A stretch of 59,787 nt of DNA from the NCBI GenBank assembly GCA_028691985.1, contig JAQUYG010000004.1:1-59787 (forward strand), in the 5' to 3' direction. Made by a program: the position numbers and the translations under genes. The notes under the pieces were generated by a model, which was not told the origin of the DNA, made no database searches, and worked only from the letters and a program-made list of their open reading frames with translations. The stretch is from Minisyncoccota bacterium (GTDB lineage Bacteria > Patescibacteriota > Minisyncoccia > JAHIHE01 > JAGLIN01). Positions 8,187-57,969 of this stretch are shown here, piece by piece; within the stretch, counting starts at the first letter, position 1, and each line of letters starts with the position of its first letter.

Positions 8187-8618
8187 CTATTTCTTCAAAA
8201 AGACAAGCCAACTACTTTCTCTGCTTTTTCCCGATCCGAAGCCGCGAGTCTTTATAAGCTCATAATTCCCCTTGAAGATTTCTCCATGAAGCACAACAGA
8301 AATTTTATTGATCTTATTATCCTTATTTTTCCCAATTTCCAGAAATTCATATTCACCGCTATCAAATATCTTAACCTCTCCTGCGCCATAACCTTCCTCA
8401 ATTACGCCCTCAAAATCGATATAATCAACTGGATGATCCTCGACCGCGATGGCCAGTCTTTTTACTCCGACCTCATGTGAAAGGTTCTTAGGCACCGCCC
8501 AAGACCTGAGCACCCACTCACCTCCATCATCTTGCATCTCCAAGCGAAAATCAAAATGAAGATGCGAGGCATGATGCTCATGCACGACAAAGCGAAATTT
8601 TTTATTTTTATCTGCCAT
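8187..8618 (-). CDS. Stand-alone LigD 3'-phosphoesterase (PE) domain-like protein
   Basis: FRFVVHEHHASHLHFDFRLE ... WAVPKNLS ... AIAVEDHPVDYIDFEGVI matches the histidine-rich core I recall for the LigD PE domain. Start chosen at ATG 8618 (MADKNKK). Confidence 0.65.
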   Translation of the reverse strand: MADKNKKFRFVVHEHHASHLHFDFRLEMQDDGGEWVLRSWAVPKNLSHEVGVKRLAIAVEDHPVDYIDFEGVIEEGYGAGEVKIFDSGEYEFLEIGKNKDNKINKISVVLHGEIFKGNYELIKTRGFGSGKSRESSWLVFLKK

Positions 8619-8671
8619 TCGCTTATATGCTATTTTTACAGAATTAGCCCCCCCCAAGAAACAGCCTTAAC

Positions 8672-8705: not shown

Positions 8706-9206
8706 CTAAAACTCGGTATTTTCAACTTCTATCACACTTGTCGGATTCGCAGAAGACCAGAACCAATGCTCGGGAACTTGTATGTATTGCTTCCTTACTG
8801 GATTGTTATGAATATAATTTATCTTTTGCTTAAAATAATCTTCCGATTCTATAATTTTCGGCATATTAGTCTTTTGCCAGAATTCCCATTTTTCATTAGC
8901 TTGAAATAATTTTATTACATCCGGCTCGGTTGCAATAATATTTTTGATAATTTCACTAGCAGTATATCTCTTAAAATCCCTTACAAAAGCAATCATATCA
9001 GGTGCCGACACTATCATATGAACATGATTTACCATAAAAACATAAGCGTACAACTTCAGACTTTTGTGCTTCTGACAATATTTTATAGAATCGGCAAGAA
9101 TTTTAAAGCGATTATGTCTGTCAAAGATGTAGTACCAGTTCTTCACCGTAAAAGTTATAAAGTATATTTCGGAATTTAACTCTTTGGATATTCTTATGGA
9201 TGGCAT
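8706..9206 (-). CDS. REP-associated tyrosine transposase (RAYT) / IS200-like HUH-Y1 transposase
   Basis: 166-aa ORF with the HUH motif VNHVHMIV and the catalytic-Tyr region YIHNNPVRKQY. Size and motif order match the Y1_Tnp family. Confidence 0.8.
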   Translation of the reverse strand: MPSIRISKELNSEIYFITFTVKNWYYIFDRHNRFKILADSIKYCQKHKSLKLYAYVFMVNHVHMIVSAPDMIAFVRDFKRYTASEIIKNIIATEPDVIKLFQANEKWEFWQKTNMPKIIESEDYFKQKINYIHNNPVRKQYIQVPEHWFWSSANPTSVIEVENTEF

Positions 9207-9306: not shown

Positions 9307-11211
9307 CTATTCTAAAACCGCCTTGATTCTTCTTACTCCGGCAGAAGAAGATTCTTCTTTCGCGATACGAAAGCGTCCCAATTCGGAAGTGTTCTCGACA
9401 TGCGGACCGCCACAGATTTCTTTAGAAAACACGCCTTTCTCGTCATCGCCCATCACATAGACCTTCACTTTCTCGCCATATTTAGACTCAAAGACCCCCA
9501 TCGCGCCCAAACGCTTGGCATCTTCCAAACCCATCTCTTCGCACCTAACCGGAAGAGCTTTCTTGATTTGTTCATTCACAATCGCCTCAACTTTTTTCTT
9601 TTCTTCATCAGTCATCTTCTCCGGATGTGAAAAATCGAACCTCAGCCTTTCCGCAGTTATATTACTTCCCTTTTGAAAGACATGGTCACCCAAAACCAAA
9701 CGAAGCGCCTGCAGGAGAAGATGCGCTGCAGTATGAAGTCGTGTCGTCTCTTCGCTGTTATCAGCAAGTCCACCTTTGAACTTTCCAGCCGAAGCCGTAC
9801 GAGAAAGATCCTGATGATTATGAAAACTCTCATCAAATTCGTCCTTGAGTTTTATGCTATCAAATTCCATTCCACGCTTCTCGATTTCCTCGATTATCAT
9901 CTCATAAGGAAAACCGTAAGTTTGAAATATATTAAAAGCCTTCTCTCCATTAATATCTTCCAATTTTTCCAATTCTCTCAGCCCCATTTCCAAAGTCTTC
10001 CCAAATTTCTCTTCTTCTTTCTCCAATTCATCAATAATCTTTGTTTTATTCTCAATAAGTGCCGGATATTCTTCGCCATAAATTCCTAAGATGACATCTA
10101 CCAATTCAATCAAGAATTTCTCCTGTGTCTGTAAATTCCTCGCGCTCCTTATTGCCCGGCGGATAAGCCGTCTCAGAATATATCCGCGATCCAGATTGGA
10201 CGGCACGACCCCATCGGAAATCATAAAGACCGAAGTGCGGATATGGTCGGCAACGATGCGCGCTGCTTTATTTTTTTCAGCATCCTGCAGCTCCCCATCT
10301 CCCTTCGCAGTGTTTTGTATTTCTCCCTCGCTCTTCGGGGAGAGGGTTGGAGTGAGGGGCGTATTAGAAAGTTCCTTCACCTTATCTACGATCGGCTTCA
10401 AAACATCGCTCTCATAAATATTATCAAAACCGTTGAGCATTGCGAGTGTCCTCTCTAACCCCATCCCTGTGTCCACATTCTGCTGAGAAAGCGGCTCGAA
10501 CCCCCCTTCCGCATTCTTGTTATATTGCATAAAAACATTATTCCAGATTTCCACATATCTGCCGCAGTGACATCCCGGTTTACAATCGCTTCCATTCGGA
10601 CAAGTATCATAATTCGTCGATTTCCCGAGATCGATAAAAATTTCCGTATCCGGACCGCACGGACCGGTAATGCCCGCCGGACCCCACCAGTTATCATCTT
10701 TCGGAAGCGGAAAGATTTTTGCCTCCTCGTTATTCTTTCCATCCCAGACTTTCGCCTCGATACCCACGCTCGCAAAACATTCCTGCCAAATCTTTATCGA
10801 CTCTTCGTCTTTTGGCGCATCTTCGTCACCCTCGAATACCGTAACTTTCAAACGCTTAGGATCTATTCCTAGATATTTTTCGTCCGTCAGGAATTCAAAG
10901 CTCCAGCGAATGGACTCGTCCTTGAAATAATCCCCGAGCGACCAATTGCCGAGCATCTCGAAAAAAGTGTTATGAGTACTGTCACCAACATCCTCGATAT
11001 CCCCCGTCCTGACACATTTCTGCACGCTAGTTAATCGCGCCCCCTCTGGATGTTTCTCCCCCAAAAGATACGGCACCAGCGGATGCATACCCGCTGTCGT
11101 AAAAAGCACCGTCGGATCATTCTCCGGCACCACCGAAGCCGACGGAATCCTCTTATGCCCCTTTGATATGAAAAAATTGATATACCTCTCTCTCAGTTCT
11201 CTTGAATTCAT
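9307..11211 (-). CDS. alaS: Alanyl-tRNA synthetase, short form without a C-Ala domain
   Basis: 634-aa ORF. N-terminus FFISKGHKRIPSASVVPENDPTVLFTTAGMHP; motifs CVRTGDIEDVGDSTHNTFFEMLGNWS; editing-domain motifs HTAAHLL and CGGPHV. Confidence 0.92.
   Translation of the reverse strand: MNSRELRERYINFFISKGHKRIPSASVVPENDPTVLFTTAGMHPLVPYLLGEKHPEGARLTSVQKCVRTGDIEDVGDSTHNTFFEMLGNWSLGDYFKDESIRWSFEFLTDEKYLGIDPKRLKVTVFEGDEDAPKDEESIKIWQECFASVGIEAKVWDGKNNEEAKIFPLPKDDNWWGPAGITGPCGPDTEIFIDLGKSTNYDTCPNGSDCKPGCHCGRYVEIWNNVFMQYNKNAEGGFEPLSQQNVDTGMGLERTLAMLNGFDNIYESDVLKPIVDKVKELSNTPLTPTLSPKSEGEIQNTAKGDGELQDAEKNKAARIVADHIRTSVFMISDGVVPSNLDRGYILRRLIRRAIRSARNLQTQEKFLIELVDVILGIYGEEYPALIENKTKIIDELEKEEEKFGKTLEMGLRELEKLEDINGEKAFNIFQTYGFPYEMIIEEIEKRGMEFDSIKLKDEFDESFHNHQDLSRTASAGKFKGGLADNSEETTRLHTAAHLLLQALRLVLGDHVFQKGSNITAERLRFDFSHPEKMTDEEKKKVEAIVNEQIKKALPVRCEEMGLEDAKRLGAMGVFESKYGEKVKVYVMGDDEKGVFSKEICGGPHVENTSELGRFRIAKEESSSAGVRRIKAVLE
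10323..10359. repeat. Family-3 short repeat (GGGAGAGGGTTnGnGTGAGG) embedded in frame in alaS
   Basis: GGGAGAGGGTTGGAGTGAGG matches 38741-38760 (GGGAGAGGGTTAGGGTGAGG) at 18 of 20 positions. The minus-strand translation is PLTPTLSPKSEGE. Confidence 0.65.
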
Positions 11212-11273
11212 TTCCTTTATTTAACTGATAAATAGATTTTAGACTGTTTCTAGTATAGTTTAAAAGATGAAAA

Positions 11274-11286
11274 AAATAAAGATTAT
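11274..11286. repeat. 13-bp inverted repeat, arm just 3' of the RT stop codon
   Basis: AAATAAAGATTAT is the exact reverse complement of 12882-12894. Confidence 0.7.
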
Positions 11287-11287
11287 T

Positions 11288-12877
11288 CTAAAGTTTATCT
11301 AAAATAATAACATTTAGAAAAGATACACCATCCTTAGCCATCTTTTCGTAAAAATCAAAATAATTTACATTTCCATCTGCCAGTGCTTTTCTAAATGATT
11401 TTCTAAATTTTTTTTGATCAGAACGAAAAACTTCATAAATATAAATCCACCATTCTGACTGAACATCATCTTTAATTAACTCTCTTATTATCTTATAATA
11501 ATAGTTTTTGTAATCGTTCCCTTTACATTTATCATAAGCGAAAAACATAAGAGTGGGTACACAGTCTCTAGAAAGAATAATCGCATTCCTTTTTTTAGTA
11601 AGATTTTTAATAGCAAGGTCATATTTTATCGCCAAGAACAAAGTCCATGCCATAATATCAGACTTTCTAGAATAGATATGTTCATTTAGAAGAAGTTCGA
11701 TTATATCTTCGGCATCTTTCTTGAATTTTTTTTCGTCCAAAGCGTTTCCTATAGAAAATAATTTATCAAAAGAATCTATATTATATGGATATAAAAATGT
11801 TAAATTCCCAAAATATTTAAGAACTATTCTATAAGAATCATAATCAAGATAATACTTACAAGAAAGCATCTTCATTGCATACTTAATTGAATGGGTATTG
11901 TTCCCATTCTTAAAAAGGGTAGTTGCTAAGTCAAGAAAGCTAATAATCTTGTTTTTTTGAGAAATATCCAGAATCTTATTCAAATTAGCTTCACTGAATT
12001 CTTGTAGGAGATTAATCCAGTCTGTACTTTGAGCTAAAGGCAGTTCTAGAATTTCTGTTTTTTGAGAGTTTAGACCTAAACAATAAGTATCCAAATTACC
12101 ACTTAAATCTTTTATAAAACTATTTGCTTTCTCTAATGATTCGCAATAACAGATGTAATCATCAATATAACGAACATAACTATAAGAGGATAATTCTTTA
12201 TCAACGGCCGAAAGTATTATTTCTGAAATTACATTAGAAGTATCCGGACCAATAAGAATACCGGAAGTTTCATCATTTTTCATCCTTCTTACATAATAAT
12301 CTAGCTCATTATACCATTTCTTTTTATCATTACGATTCTTTTTTGCTTCTTTCTTCCCAGCTAATGCCCAACTAATAGAATGAGAATAAATAGAAGAAAA
12401 ACAATTTGAGATATCAGCGAAAACCACATATTTTTTTCCCGATTGTTTCTGCAATTTAATAAAGTTTTCTTGCTTATTTTTTCCATACGACCCAAAAGAA
12501 ACTAGTCTACCGTTCTTATTATTTAGCTTTGGCACTATAATACTCGTATCTGGATAGTTGGACACTTTGCCGATTGTTTTATTAATATTATTCCAATTAT
12601 CTTTTATGCAAAAACAGAGTTCGGTATAAGCGACAGGATGAGGAATGGACAAGACCCTCGGAATATTATTATTCCTGGTTAATTTAAAAGCAACAGGAGA
12701 AAAACTCTGTTTCTTTTTATAGAGATACTTTTTTATCTTATTATTTATAACCCATTGACCATATTGTTCAGAGGTCAGGATATCTTTGATTTTTTCTGGA
12801 AAAAGACCAAAACAAATCAATTTTTCAAAGACAACTATATCATCTAAATCTTTATAAGCTTTAACAATCCTAGACAT
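11288..12877 (-). CDS. Stand-alone reverse transcriptase, UG/Abi-like (defence-associated type), with a long helical C-terminal region
   Basis: 529-aa ORF with an ordered RT motif series: FKLTRNNNIPRVLSIPHPVAY (1/2), YVVFADISNCFSSIYSH (A), GILIGPDTSNVISEIIL (B), YVRYIDDYICYC (C, YxDD), LGLNSQKTEIL (E). About 230 aa follow the palm domain. No maturase X, endonuclease or Cas domain is visible. Confidence 0.8.
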   Translation of the reverse strand: MSRIVKAYKDLDDIVVFEKLICFGLFPEKIKDILTSEQYGQWVINNKIKKYLYKKKQSFSPVAFKLTRNNNIPRVLSIPHPVAYTELCFCIKDNWNNINKTIGKVSNYPDTSIIVPKLNNKNGRLVSFGSYGKNKQENFIKLQKQSGKKYVVFADISNCFSSIYSHSISWALAGKKEAKKNRNDKKKWYNELDYYVRRMKNDETSGILIGPDTSNVISEIILSAVDKELSSYSYVRYIDDYICYCESLEKANSFIKDLSGNLDTYCLGLNSQKTEILELPLAQSTDWINLLQEFSEANLNKILDISQKNKIISFLDLATTLFKNGNNTHSIKYAMKMLSCKYYLDYDSYRIVLKYFGNLTFLYPYNIDSFDKLFSIGNALDEKKFKKDAEDIIELLLNEHIYSRKSDIMAWTLFLAIKYDLAIKNLTKKRNAIILSRDCVPTLMFFAYDKCKGNDYKNYYYKIIRELIKDDVQSEWWIYIYEVFRSDQKKFRKSFRKALADGNVNYFDFYEKMAKDGVSFLNVIILDKL

Positions 12878-12881
12878 TTTT

Positions 12882-12894
12882 ATAATCTTTATTT
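12882..12894. repeat. 13-bp inverted repeat, arm just 5' of the RT start, overlapping the murG stop codon
   Basis: ATAATCTTTATTT pairs with 11274-11286. Confidence 0.7.
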
Positions 12895-13983
12895 AAACTT
12901 CAAAATCTCCTCCGCGATGATTTCCGATGGTTTTTTATTTCCGAGAGAAGCATTGTGTTTCTGAAGACTATCTTTAGTCTCGTTTTCTTTCCCTTTCAAC
13001 TCTTCCATCTTCTCCAAAAACTTGCCGCTACTCAGATCTTTTTCTTCCGCAAGCATTATCATCCCCTGATCGGCAAAATATTTTGCGTTGTGATACTGGT
13101 GATTATTTGCCGCCGACGGAAGAGGAATAATAAGACTCGGTTTTTCAAGCGCGATGATTTCCGAAAGAGAACTCGCACCCGCACGAGAAACGACAAAATC
13201 GGCAAGCGCAAACGCGTCCTTCATTTCCTCACCGAGATAAGGATATGCCCTATAACGATCCCTATATTTTAAATCAAGCGCATCCGTCCGTTCTTTTATC
13301 TCCTTGAAATTCCTATTTCCACATATATGGATGACCTGAAATTCAAAAAGTATCTCATCCAAAGACCCGAGTAATAGTTCATTGATTTTTTGTGCGCCTT
13401 GGCTGCCACCAAAAACTAAAACAACCGGCAGATTTTCCAATAATCCGAAAAATCTTCGCGCGTAAGGCTTATCGCCCTCCAAAATGTCTTCTCGAATCGG
13501 ATTTCCAGAAACGATGATCTTACTATCCAAGAAATAATTGCGGCTCTGGGGAAAAGAAATGAACACTTTTTTCGCCAAGCGTCCGATAATCTTGTTTGAA
13601 AGTCCCGGCACGGTGTCGGACTCGTGCGTGAGAATCGGAATGCGAAGATACGAAGCCGCCACGACTGCCGGCACAGACGCAAATCCGCCTTTGCTAAAAA
13701 CGACATCAGGCTTGAATTTCAATATATGGAAAAATGCCTCGTCGATTCCGACCAGCACTTTGAATATGTCCGAAAAATTCTGCAAAGAGAAATACCTACG
13801 CAACTTGCCTGCTTTTACTTCTTTGACCTCAATCCCCGCTTCTCTGAGACTCTCATTAAAATCGCTCTTCGGCCCCACGAACAAGAACTCGGCATCCGCA
13901 TCGCGCTTCTTGATTTCCGAAACCACCGACAAAAGCGGAATCAGATGTCCGCCCGTTCCTCCGCCTGTTAGAAGTATTTTCAT
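12889..13983 (-). CDS. murG: MurG, lipid II-forming undecaprenyl-PP-MurNAc-pentapeptide GlcNAc transferase
   Basis: 364-aa ORF: MKILLTGGGTGGHLIPLL, GGFASVPAV, GGSQGA, SRAGASSLSEI. Confidence 0.9.
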   Translation of the reverse strand: MKILLTGGGTGGHLIPLLSVVSEIKKRDADAEFLFVGPKSDFNESLREAGIEVKEVKAGKLRRYFSLQNFSDIFKVLVGIDEAFFHILKFKPDVVFSKGGFASVPAVVAASYLRIPILTHESDTVPGLSNKIIGRLAKKVFISFPQSRNYFLDSKIIVSGNPIREDILEGDKPYARRFFGLLENLPVVLVFGGSQGAQKINELLLGSLDEILFEFQVIHICGNRNFKEIKERTDALDLKYRDRYRAYPYLGEEMKDAFALADFVVSRAGASSLSEIIALEKPSLIIPLPSAANNHQYHNAKYFADQGMIMLAEEKDLSSGKFLEKMEELKGKENETKDSLQKHNASLGNKKPSEIIAEEILKFK

Positions 13984-14008: not shown

Positions 14009-14048
14009 TGTCATCCTGAGCGGAGTGATAGCGCAGTTAAAGTACCTC
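14009..14048. repeat. Family-2 repeat copy (GTCATCCTGAGCG...), partial
   Basis: TGTCATCCTGAGCGGAGTGATAGCGCAG resembles 32153, 43493 and 57919. Confidence 0.6.
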
Positions 14049-16589: not shown

Positions 16590-17006
16590 TCAACAATACA
16601 TCTTTATGTAATTATAAAAAGCAACATCAACCCCAGTCCACGATCCAAACAGCAAGATACCAGATAAAAAAATAAGGGATAAAGACAAAATGATCTGATA
16701 TGAATTGCAACTAATATATTTACTTTTAAAAAAATAAGATAGCAAAAGCACAAAAAGCAAAAAAACAGAAATTTCTATCAGTATAAAGCTAATTGAAAAA
16801 ATATTAATGTAAAGATTAAAACCACCTAGAGGTTCGTAAAAATTTGAACACAATTCTATTGAGCTCGAATCATTTAAAACCTCATAATTATATCCTTCAT
16901 ATTTAAAATTATAATATTCAACATAACCAAACAAAAAGATATTAAACAGAAAAATAATAAGAAAGAAAAATGTAAAAATCTTGCCCCCTAGAAAGTTTTT
17001 TATCAT
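16590..17006 (-). CDS. Hypothetical multi-pass membrane protein (very AT-rich)
   Basis: 138-aa ORF with about four hydrophobic segments. No family recognised. Confidence 0.45.
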   Translation of the reverse strand: MIKNFLGGKIFTFFFLIIFLFNIFLFGYVEYYNFKYEGYNYEVLNDSSSIELCSNFYEPLGGFNLYINIFSISFILIEISVFLLFVLLLSYFFKSKYISCNSYQIILSLSLIFLSGILLFGSWTGVDVAFYNYIKMYC

Positions 17007-32143: not shown

Positions 32144-32152
32144 TTTTTAGCC

Positions 32153-32238
32153 GTCATCCTGAGTGCAGCGGAGCGAAACGAAGGATCCCGTTGCTACGCG
32201 GGATAAAACGGGATCCTTCGGAGTACCTCAGGATGACA
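32153..32238. repeat. Family-2 repeat, complete palindromic form
   Basis: Outer arms GTCATCCTGAG / CTCAGGATGAC and inner arms CGAAGGATCCCG / CGGGATCCTTCG. It fills most of the miaB-miaA spacer. Confidence 0.8.
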
Positions 32239-32257
32239 GCCAATATAAGATTTAAAT

Positions 32258-43323: not shown

Positions 43324-43492
43324 TTACCCCCCCCACCTCACTATCCTCTACTACAAGAGAATCACAATATGTTCTATATTATACGCAAAAAGTCTAATTC
43401 TGGATTATTTTTTTGTCAAAAATGCTAAACTGGATCTCGCCTCTATCGTCCTAGCCTTACCAAACATTATTTTCACTATAAATCACCTCTTT

Positions 43493-43533
43493 GTCATTCT
43501 GAGCGAAGCGACAGCGGAGTCGAAGAATTCCTC
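43493..43533. repeat. Family-2 repeat copy, half element
   Basis: GTCATTCTGAGCGAAGCGACAGCGGAGTCGAAGAATTCCTC. Confidence 0.7.
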
Positions 43534-43694
43534 CACTACCACTCGGACTCATATCATACAATTTTAATAGAATAAAGAGATTCCTAGACAAGCTCAAAAT
43601 GACAAAAAATATTGCTAAGAGAAATAACTTCCAGAACATTGGCATTATTTAATTCCGACATTCAAATTACCAGCGCGCAAAAAAATATCATCAA

Positions 43695-57918: not shown

Positions 57919-57969
57919 TGTCATTCTGAGCGCAGCGATAGCGGAGTCGAAGGATCCCTTCGTTACGCC
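57919..57969. repeat. Family-2 repeat copy, half element
   Basis: GTCATTCTGAGCGCAGCGATAGCGGAGTCGAAGGATCCCTTCGTTACGCC. Confidence 0.7.

What the first reader, a model, noticed from the sequence alone, without database searches (positions are those of the whole stretch)
11274..12894. Orphan UG/Abi-type reverse transcriptase cassette in a low-GC islet between alaS and murG, bracketed by a perfect 13-bp inverted repeat
The 529-aa ORF carries a complete, ordered RT motif series (RVLSIPHP, FADISNCF, IGPDTSN, YIDD, NSQKTEI). About 230 further residues follow that look helical and repeat-like. It has no maturase X or endonuclease domain, and there is no room for an intron RNA. Upstream space for a retron msr/msd is only 11 bp from the murG stop, and no Cas1, TR/VR pair or C-type-lectin target lies nearby. 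That architecture fits the single-gene Abi/UG defence-associated RTs (AbiK, Abi-P2, DRT-like). Hand counts of individual 60-nt lines give about 27-37% GC inside the gene, against about 50-57% in the adjacent murG and alaS lines, which argues for foreign origin. AAATAAAGATTAT (11274-11286, one nt after the RT stop) is the exact reverse complement of 12882-12894 (four nt before the RT ATG, overlapping the murG stop). The ORF therefore sits exactly in the loop of what would otherwise be a hairpin plus T-run after murG. The 76-bp 3' spacer is the only non-coding space available for a partner RNA. A defence-type RT embedded among essential genes of a reduced genome is unusual.
Basis: partly seen in the sequence, partly recalled or inferred. 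Interest (0 to 1): 0.75.

Follow-up and report, generated by a model that had tools for sequence, protein, structure and literature searches.

The report
DRT4-type defence reverse transcriptase in a CPR genome
The gene is a divergent but intact member of the already characterised DRT4 (UG15) family of anti-phage reverse transcriptases, sitting in a variable slot between two housekeeping genes of a tiny-genome (Paceibacterota) bacterium; the flanking 13-bp inverted repeat is real but is not a conserved part of it.

Summary
A 529-aa ORF (11288-12877, minus strand) lies between murG and alaS. It has 28.8% GC against 44-46% in its neighbours. An exact 13-bp inverted repeat flanks it.

The protein is a DRT4/UG15 family member: PADLOC Drt4 E 3.5e-137 over the full length, PDB DRT4/UG15 E 3e-56, and an AlphaFold model with TM 0.77-0.82 to DRT4. 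The catalytic residues and the priming tyrosine (Y131) are conserved. The DRT4 mechanism was published in 2025: protein-primed, template-independent synthesis of random ssDNA, leading to abortive infection.

No partner RNA is expected, and there is no room for one. The 76-bp spacer is the host alaS upstream region, which RT-less relatives share.

The murG|alaS interval is a variable slot in related Paceibacterota. It holds the RT, YdjC, a LigT-like gene, unknown ORFs, or only non-coding sequence with REP-like repeats or a ydjC remnant. Between two genomes the RT is 89% identical in DNA, while the flanking murG is 66% and alaS 81%. The RT therefore moved horizontally into the same slot.

The inverted repeat is degraded in one RT-bearing relative and absent in another. 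Most of each arm matches sequence that is also present at the same junctions in RT-less relatives.

Verdict: a new member of a known kind, of modest interest.

The parts
11288..12877 (-). DRT4/UG15-family reverse transcriptase gene, 529 aa. The RT fingers and palm occupy roughly residues 1-280 and the all-helical alpha-Rep domain roughly 286-529. Key residues are R74, Y131 (putative priming Tyr), D155, Y237-I-D239-D240, N270, K273 and Y333.
   Evidence: Pfam RVT_1. PADLOC Drt4 E 3.5e-137, covering residues 5-522. NCBIfam Drt4 395.5 bits, below the 450 cut-off. PDB UG15/DRT4 chains E 3e-56. Residue mapping. AF2 pLDDT 92 and pTM 0.90. Foldseek TM 0.77-0.82 to 9vdo and 9l9s. dN/dS 0.12 against the L002 orthologue.
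12878..12888 (-). 11-nt gap between the murG stop and the RT ATG. There is no room for a promoter or an ncRNA, so the RT is probably co-transcribed with murG.
   Evidence: No minus-strand promoter-like site was found here.
12882..12894 (.). Arm of the 13-bp inverted repeat proximal to the RT start. On the RT strand it reads AAATAAAGATTAT and contains the last Lys codon and the TAA stop of murG.
   Evidence: A similar string follows murG in L003 and in RT-less L023.
11274..11286 (.). Arm of the 13-bp inverted repeat distal to the RT stop. On the RT strand it reads ATAATCTTTATTT. The CTTTATTT part begins a block conserved upstream of alaS in RT-less relatives.
   Evidence: alignment A1.
11212..11281 (-). 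Host alaS upstream region (T-run, promoter-like TTTAAA-17-TAAAAT, leader). It is shared with relatives that lack the RT and is not cassette sequence.
   Evidence: Alignment A1; promoter scan; fold z = +0.8; no Rfam match.
12889..13983 (-). murG, the conserved upstream border of the variable slot.
   Evidence: The synteny glmS-murA-cofD-murG-[slot]-alaS appears.
9307..11211 (-). alaS, the conserved downstream border of the variable slot.

Best explanation
The ORF encodes an intact, divergent member of the DRT4 (UG15) family of class 1 UG/Abi defence reverse transcriptases. By homology with the characterised E. coli DRT4, it most likely needs no RNA template and no partner gene. In that model the enzyme forms an oligomer, primes DNA synthesis on its own tyrosine (here Y131), and continuously makes short random-sequence ssDNA that host 3'-5' exonucleases remove. 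A phage ssDNA-binding protein then protects that ssDNA, which accumulates and kills or arrests the infected cell (abortive infection).

The gene is cargo in a variable slot between the conserved murG and alaS genes of a Paceibacterota (CPR) lineage. It entered that slot by horizontal transfer and is kept under purifying selection. It is probably transcribed by read-through from murG.

Shown here: family assignment, conserved catalytic and priming residues, fold, foreign composition, slot variability, horizontal arrival and purifying selection. Inferred from the family: enzymology, trigger and defence phenotype.
For: Family assignment:
- PADLOC Drt4 E 3.5e-137 over the full length. The next-best families are Drt6 at 1e-87 and AbiK at 4e-42.
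- NCBIfam's best hit is Drt4 at E 4e-118.
- phmmer to PDB UG15/DRT4 gives E 3e-56 over residues 56-488.
- The AF2 model (pLDDT 92) matches UG15/DRT4 with TM 0.77-0.82, DRT6 with 0.82-0.87 and AbiK with 0.76-0.79.

Residues equivalent to E. coli DRT4 are conserved: R75, Y125 (priming), D149, Y238, D240, D241, N271, K274 and Y337. The mechanism is described in PMC12783706.

Selection: dN/dS is 0.12 against the 88%-identical orthologue, 0.08 in the RT domain and 0.17 in the C-terminal domain.

No partner RNA or gene:
- The gaps are 11 nt and 76 nt, and the 76-nt spacer is host sequence.
- Rfam finds only tRNAs in the window.
- Neighbours in relatives differ from locus to locus.

Foreign origin and horizontal arrival:
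- GC3 is 0.238, the lowest of 47 ORFs.
- Window versus L002: the RT is 0.889 identical in DNA (third positions 0.80). The flanking murG is 0.66 (third positions 0.45; 62% aa) and alaS 0.81 (third positions 0.51).
- The window's murG and alaS are closer to RT-less L008 than to RT-bearing L002.

Slot variability: the murG|alaS interval holds the RT (window, L002, L003), YdjC (L008), a 359-aa ORF plus YdjC (L004, L009), a ydjC remnant (L020), two unknown ORFs (L021), only REP-like repeats (L022), or a LigT-like gene (L023).
Against: - The NCBIfam Drt4 equivalog score of 395.5 is below the curated cut-off of 450. Identity to the characterised E. coli enzyme is only about 35%.
- Three residues that were functionally tested in E. 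coli DRT4 differ here: N124 is S130, the trimer-interface F140 is S146, and H204 is S205. Oligomerisation and activity could therefore differ.
- Nothing here shows expression, enzymatic activity or phage defence.
- Whether this host has the 3'-5' exonuclease that the model requires is unknown.
- The neighbours are housekeeping genes rather than defence genes.
Confidence: 0.82

Rival explanations
1. The 13-bp inverted repeat marks the ends of a mobile cassette, or is a terminator hairpin that was split by insertion. On this reading the RT is a hairpin-targeted or TIR-bounded mobile unit.
For: - The repeat is exact, unique in the window and positioned symmetrically at the ORF ends. The shuffle probability is about 8e-4.
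- RT-less relatives have a real terminator hairpin ending in ...GGGCTTTATTTTTT at the homologous alaS-side position.
- The RT reached the same slot in diverged hosts.
Against: - The repeat is not conserved among RT-bearing loci. The longest exact flank repeat is 7 nt in L002 and 6 nt in L003.
- No compensatory changes are seen.
- The left arm consists of the murG Lys-stop plus a string that is also seen after murG in RT-less L023. The right arm contains the conserved alaS-upstream block that is present whatever the cargo.
- No transposase or integrase lies in the cassette.
- With arms 1.6 kb apart it cannot act as an intrinsic terminator.
Confidence: 0.07
2. The protein belongs to a neighbouring class 1 UG/Abi group (DRT6/UG12, UG30/31 or AbiK-like) rather than DRT4, with possibly different product or trigger specificity.
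For: - It also scores strongly against Drt6 (1e-87) and RT_UG30 (2e-60).
- The fold TM to DRT6 (0.82-0.87) is as high as to DRT4.
- It falls below the NCBIfam Drt4 cut-off.
Against: - The Drt4 profiles beat Drt6 by about 160 bits.
- Sequence identity to DRT4 structures is 30-35%, against 22% to DRT6.
- The DRT4-specific priming Tyr in the palm is conserved.
- DRT6 is in any case reported to share the DRT4 mechanism and trigger.
Confidence: 0.08
3. The RT is a long-resident, vertically inherited gene that has been domesticated for a housekeeping role. It would be co-transcribed with the cell-wall gene murG and would not be a defence gene.
For: - It sits 11 nt after murG with no promoter of its own.
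- It is under strong purifying selection.
- It occupies the same position in three genomes.
Against: - Its distribution is patchy. The closest host relatives lack it.
- The RT is far more similar between genomes than its flanks.
- Its GC3 has not ameliorated.
- Homologues elsewhere sit beside SIR2-HerA-like and UvrD-type helicase genes.
Confidence: 0.03

Closest known systems
DRT4 (UG15) of E. coli 12-c8-a. Structures 9vdo, 9vdv, 9l9s and 21ou; mechanism in PMC12783706.
   Same: - Single-gene architecture.
- RT fingers and palm plus a C-terminal alpha-Rep domain, with no thumb, maturase or endonuclease domain.
- YIDD motif, metal-binding Asp residues, dNTP-binding Arg/Asn/Lys, stacking Tyr and the palm priming Tyr all conserved.
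- Full-length profile and fold match.
   Different: - About 35% identity, and below the NCBIfam equivalog cut-off.
- F140 (trimer interface), N124 and H204 are replaced by Ser.
- The host is a CPR bacterium.
- The gene is wedged between housekeeping genes with 11-nt and 76-nt gaps.
- Activity and phage trigger are untested.
DRT6 (UG12), structure 9wy8
   Same: Same domain organisation and fold (TM 0.82-0.87). It is reported to perform the same template-independent, protein-primed synthesis and to respond to the same ORF55 trigger.
   Different: Only 22% identity. The PADLOC score is about 160 bits lower than for Drt4.
AbiK and Abi-P2 (structures 7r06, 7r08)
   Same: Class 1 UG/Abi RT with an alpha-Rep domain. 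These are hexameric, protein-primed, untemplated polymerases. TM to AbiK is 0.76-0.79.
   Different: 17-19% identity. According to PMC12783706, the priming Tyr of AbiK and Abi-P2 lies in a fingers loop (Tyr44 and Tyr61), not in the palm.
Defence or cargo hotspots flanked by conserved core genes. This is a general concept from my own knowledge; no paper was read on it here.
   Same: The conserved flanks (murG, alaS) enclose different cargo in close relatives, and one cargo is a defence gene that arrived horizontally.
   Different: The slot is very small, holding 0-2 genes. The other cargos (YdjC, LigT-like, unknown ORFs) are not recognised defence genes. No integrase is present, and the transfer mechanism is unknown.

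Membership tests
DRT4 / UG15 | Best, full-length match to DRT4 profile HMMs | tested here: met
   PADLOC PDLC02178 Drt4 scores E 3.5e-137, covering residues 5-522 of 529 and profile positions 6-501 of 506. Five Drt4 models rank above or alongside all others except one Drt6 model.
DRT4 / UG15 | Score above the curated NCBIfam equivalog cut-off (NF041749, 450 bits) | tested here: not met
   395.5 bits, below 450. Drt4 is still the top hit by about 270 bits. This indicates a divergent member, not a different family.
DRT4 / UG15 | RT palm catalytic residues (metal Asp, YIDD) and dNTP-binding Arg/Asn/Lys | tested here: met
   D155, Y237-I-D239-D240, R74, N270 and K273 align to D149, YIDD238-241, R75, N271 and K274. 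These positions are invariant across 56 homologues.
DRT4 / UG15 | Priming tyrosine in the palm subdomain (Tyr125 of E. coli DRT4) | tested here: met
   Y131 aligns to Y125. The position is Tyr in 47 of 56 homologues, including all close ones. That it actually primes is inferred.
DRT4 / UG15 | C-terminal alpha-Rep domain in place of the thumb, with no other domains | tested here: met
   The AF2 model is all-helical from about residue 286 to the end. Full-length structural alignment of 493-511 columns to 9vdo and 9l9s gives TM 0.77-0.82. Pfam finds only RVT_1.
DRT4 / UG15 | Single-gene system with no ncRNA and no conserved partner gene | tested here: met
   - The flanks are murG and alaS.
- The gaps are 11 nt and 76 nt, and the spacer is host sequence that is unstructured.
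- Rfam finds nothing.
- Neighbours of homologues differ between loci.
DRT4 / UG15 | Hexamer (dimer of trimers) | not testable with these tools
   The interface residue F140 is Ser here. No multimer prediction was available.
DRT4 / UG15 | Template-independent, protein-primed ssDNA synthesis and abortive-infection phage defence | not testable with these tools
   Requires biochemistry and phage challenge. Inferred from PMC12783706.
Retron RT | Adjacent msr/msd ncRNA and an effector gene | tested here: not met
   - No Rfam match.
- There are only 11 nt upstream.
- The downstream spacer is the conserved alaS leader.
- Fold matches to retron RTs reach only TM 0.3-0.35.
Group II intron RT | Maturase X/thumb and En domains, plus intron RNA domains | tested here: not met
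   TIGR04416 scores 50.8 bits against a cut-off of 300. Rfam finds no intron. TM to GsI-IIC RT is below 0.4.
Diversity-generating retroelement | TR/VR repeat pair and a target gene | tested here: not met
   No direct repeat longer than 15 nt occurs in 10900-13300. TM to the DGR RT is 0.32-0.33.
TIR-bounded mobile cassette | Terminal inverted repeats conserved among copies of the element | tested here: not met
   The perfect 13-nt repeat is found only in the window. L002 has at most 7 nt exact and L003 at most 6 nt. The arms overlap host sequence shared with RT-less loci.

The most novel reading that the evidence does not exclude
The murG|alaS interval of this Paceibacterota clade may be a dedicated cargo-exchange site. 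An essentially ORF-only DRT4 gene, with 11 nt of 5' and about 6 nt of 3' non-host sequence, would be moved between diverged lineages by an unrecognised precise mechanism. One candidate is recombination promoted by the REP-like palindromes and the REP-associated tyrosine transposase that sits next to alaS. The alternative is ordinary homologous recombination in the flanks.
Probability: 0.1. Interest if true: 0.55.

Novelty: new member of a known kind. Interest (0 to 1): 0.27.

Why it matters
The finding extends the characterised DRT4 family to a divergent (about 35% identical) lineage in CPR/Paceibacterota, organisms with very small genomes and an episymbiotic lifestyle. It also shows that even such genomes keep a small variable slot between essential genes where a defence gene can arrive horizontally and be retained under selection. 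The divergent interface residues (F140 to S, H204 to S) make the protein a useful natural variant for testing which DRT4 features are essential. It does not reveal a new kind of system.

Tried and rejected
1. A T-box or other riboswitch upstream of alaS in RT-less relatives that the RT might have displaced. A GGGACAACCGCG string in L008 prompted this. Rfam at gathering and at E<=5 found nothing credible, and the sequence is simply a long hairpin. Rejected.

2. A partner ncRNA in the 76-bp spacer. The spacer aligns to RT-less loci and folds no better than shuffles. Rejected.

3. The inverted repeat as a motif common in the genome. Only two exact copies exist in the window, so it is not common. 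However, comparison with L002, L003 and six RT-less loci shows it is not conserved either.

4. A phage origin or vector for the RT. Searching the protein against 50,697 phage records gave only distant Abi-P2-like and other RT hits at 34% identity or less. The IMG/VR scan found nothing.

5. The other cargos of the slot as defence genes. The 359-aa ORF and the L004 YdjC gave no PADLOC hits. The L008 YdjC gave one marginal CARF hit at E 0.004.

6. Co-transfer of flanking DNA as a sign of homologous recombination. The first 381 nt of alaS are not more similar between the window and L002 (0.806) than between the window and RT-less L008 (0.866). No extended co-transferred tract is visible, and the mechanism is left open.
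Full report
**1. Observation**

The window holds a 529-aa ORF on the minus strand at 11288-12877.

Upstream, 11 nt away, lies murG (Glyco_transf_28 N and C domains). Downstream, 76 nt away, lies alaS (tRNA-synt_2c plus tRNA_SAD).

AAATAAAGATTAT at 11274-11286 is the exact reverse complement of 12882-12894. These are the only two exact copies in the window.

The computed GC values are 0.288 for the RT (GC3 0.238), 0.440 for murG, 0.456 for alaS and 0.403 for the window. The RT has the lowest GC3 of the 47 ORFs I delimited.

The flanking inverted repeat is the longest of any of those 47 ORFs; the next longest are 11, 10 and 10 nt. Shuffled flanks reach 13 nt in 16 of 20,000 trials.

**2. What the protein is**

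- Pfam sees only RVT_1.
- PADLOC gives Drt4 at E 3.5e-137, aligned end to end (residues 5-522; profile positions 6-501 of 506). Drt6 follows at 1e-87, UG30 at 2e-60 and AbiK at 4e-42.
- NCBIfam's top hit is the 'antiviral reverse transcriptase Drt4' equivalog at E 4e-118. The score of 395.5 bits is below its strict cut-off of 450, so this is a divergent member.
- Against PDB sequences, the best matches are the UG15/DRT4 chains 21ou, 9vdo and 9ltm at E 3e-56, spanning residues 56-488.
- An AlphaFold2 model built on 56 homologues is confident (pLDDT 92, pTM 0.90). It has an alpha/beta N-terminal half and an all-helical C-terminal half.
- Foldseek against the PDB ranks UG15/DRT4 first (TM 0.77-0.82, about 500 aligned columns). 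DRT6 (0.82-0.87) and AbiK (0.76-0.79) follow. Group II intron, retron, DGR, DRT2 and DRT9 RTs match only at TM of about 0.3-0.4.

They form the alpha-Rep domain that replaces the thumb in class 1 UG/Abi RTs.

**3. Functional residues**

I mapped the phmmer alignment onto the numbering of the characterised E. coli enzyme.

| E. coli DRT4 residue | Role | Window protein |
|---|---|---|
| R75 | dNTP binding | R74 |
| Y125 | priming tyrosine | Y131 |
| D149 | metal binding | D155 |
| Y238-I-D240-D241 | YIDD motif | Y237-I-D239-D240 |
| N271, K274 | dNTP binding | N270, K273 |
| Y337 | stacking | Y333 |
| N124 | DNA contact | S130 (differs) |
| F140 | trimer interface | S146 (differs) |
| H204 | interface 2 | S205 (differs) |

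The catalytic positions are invariant in 56 homologues. The priming Tyr is present in 47 of 56. Overall identity to the E. coli enzyme is 35%.

**4. How it most likely works**

The mechanism of DRT4 was published in 2025 (PMC12783706).

- It is a single-gene system that needs no ncRNA or partner.
- It forms a hexamer.
- It primes on Tyr125 and makes random-sequence ssDNA without a template.
- Host 3'-5' exonuclease normally degrades this ssDNA.
- The ssDNA then accumulates and the cell dies (abortive infection).

By homology I assign this mechanism to the window protein. The enzymology and the phenotype are inferences, and nothing here tests them.

It contains a promoter-like site for alaS. 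It is no more structured than shuffled sequence (z = +0.8). Rfam finds only three tRNAs in the whole window.

**5. Host and genomic context**

The closest murG and alaS relatives come from Candidatus Paceibacterota / Patescibacteria MAGs. The synteny glmS - murA (EPSP_synthase family) - cofD - murG - [slot] - alaS is conserved across this clade. The content of the murG|alaS slot differs between genomes.

| Locus | Slot content |
|---|---|
| window, L001, L002, L003 | DRT4-like RT |
| L008 (murG 82% identical to the window's) | YdjC |
| L004, L009 | 359-aa unknown ORF plus YdjC |
| L020 | a ydjC 5' remnant plus REP-like repeats |
| L021 | two unknown ORFs |
| L022 | only REP-like repeats |
| L023 | LigT-like 2'-5' RNA ligase |

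The 'islet' is thus a small variable slot between conserved core genes. The RT is one of at least six alternative contents.

**6. Horizontal arrival**

L002 carries an RT that is 88% identical in protein and 88.9% in DNA, at the same position.

| Gene (window vs L002) | DNA identity | Third-codon identity | Other |
|---|---|---|---|
| RT | 0.889 | 0.80 | 88% aa |
| murG | 0.66 | 0.45 | 62% aa over 261 residues |
| alaS | 0.81 | 0.51 | Nei-Gojobori pS 0.80 |

A 90-nt sliding identity steps up at the murG stop and down again after the RT stop.

The window's murG and alaS are closer to RT-less L008 (0.75 and 0.87) than to RT-bearing L002 (0.66 and 0.81). Even allowing for the AT bias of the RT, its synonymous divergence is several-fold lower than that of its flanks. 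The RT gene is therefore younger in these genomes than the split between the hosts.

It reached the same slot by horizontal transfer or by recombination between lineages. The unameliorated GC3 agrees with this. I saw no extended co-transferred flank, so the mechanism is open.

The gene is under purifying selection: dN/dS is 0.12 overall, 0.08 in the RT half and 0.17 in the alpha-Rep half.

Homologues at 45-49% identity come mostly from unnamed metagenome contigs; the named ones are mostly Bacteroidota. Two that I inspected sit beside SIR2 plus HerA-like genes and beside a UvrD-type helicase. No phage relative was found.

**7. The inverted repeat**

The repeat is perfect only in the window.

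- In L002 the murG-side arm reads AAATAGATATTA. By eye this gives 10 of 12 matches at the homologous positions. The longest exact flanking repeat there is 7 nt.
- In L003 (RT 63% identical, same slot) the alaS-side arm is absent.
- None of the six RT-less loci has a comparable flank repeat.

Most of each arm matches sequence that is not specific to the RT locus.

- The murG-side arm consists of the last Lys codon and the stop of murG, plus AGATTAT. A near-identical string follows murG in L003 and in RT-less L023.
- The alaS-side arm is ATAAT plus CTTTATTT. The CTTTATTT begins a block (CTTTATTTTTT..TTTTAAAyTATACT) that is conserved upstream of alaS in L004, L008, L009, L020, L021 and L023 whatever the cargo.
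- In L008 that block is the descending arm plus T-run of a true terminator hairpin, AAAGCCC...GGGCTTT.

But the 13-bp complementarity is lineage-specific. No compensatory change supports it. It is best read as a fortuitous match between two AT-rich host elements, not as cassette ends.

**8. Comparison with what is known, and novelty**

This is a member of the DRT4/UG15 family, with the caveat that it falls below the NCBIfam equivalog cut-off. DRT6 and AbiK are close structural relatives that work the same way.

Defence systems in CPR have been catalogued. A groundwater survey reports a high defence density per Mb in CPR and a high diversity of defence families in Paceibacteria (PMC12259885). 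A 38%-identical homologue is already annotated in Candidatus Gracilibacteria. Finding such a gene in a reduced genome is therefore not very surprising.

The one mildly new element is a tiny variable slot between murG and alaS into which an almost ORF-only DRT4 gene was transferred between diverged lineages.

**9. Verdict**

This is a new member of a known kind. Interest is about 0.27. The most novel reading still open is a precise cargo-exchange mechanism at this slot, perhaps linked to REP and RAYT elements. I give it a probability of about 0.1.

Noticed in passing
window 8706-9206 (-): A low-GC (0.325) 166-aa ORF immediately downstream of alaS. It is a REP-associated tyrosine transposase (NCBIfam NF047646, 87.2 bits against a cut-off of 80; Pfam Y1_Tnp is weak). 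A 217-aa homologue sits in the same place after alaS in L004 and L020.
   Followed up: partly
window 14009-14021, 32152-32238, 43492-43604, 57919-57931: A REP-like motif, TGTCATCCTGAGC, occurs 7 times at up to 2 mismatches, against 0.9 expected. Several copies form inverted pairs that make long palindromes; for example, 32151-32240 is a palindromic element of about 90 nt. Similar repeats fill the murG|alaS slot in L020, L022 and L008. Together with the RAYT gene, they might contribute to the variability of the slot.
   Followed up: partly
window 8187-8657 (-): A 156-aa ORF with a LigD_N 3'-phosphoesterase domain (E 1.3e-32). With the RAYT gene it lies between alaS and tRNA-Val. In L008, tRNA-Val follows alaS after about 200 nt, so this is a second variable spot.
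   Followed up: no
L008 7030-7119; homologous stretch in L004 and L009 just upstream of the alaS terminator: A long imperfect hairpin of about 90 nt (GAGTAGTAG...GGGACAACCGCGCAGG...CTGCTACTC), conserved between L008 and L004/L009. It has no Rfam family; the only hit was a chance-level miRNA match at E = 1. It is absent from the window.
   Followed up: partly
window 16590-17006 (-): A 138-aa ORF in a second sharp low-GC islet (GC 0.249) next to the murA-like gene. It has no Pfam or PADLOC match. An ORF of the same length sits at the corresponding place in L008 (1801-2217), which suggests it is conserved rather than a recent import.
   Followed up: no
L004 7161-8240 / L009 6161-7240: A 359-aa ORF occupies the murG|alaS slot in two related genomes. 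It has no Pfam or PADLOC match, and its function is unknown.
   Followed up: partly
L021 1318-1608 and 4584-4880: Two small GIY-YIG domain ORFs (96 and 98 aa) are inserted between core genes (glmS/murA and cofD/murG) in one relative. This is another sign of small mobile or selfish cargo between these conserved genes.
   Followed up: no
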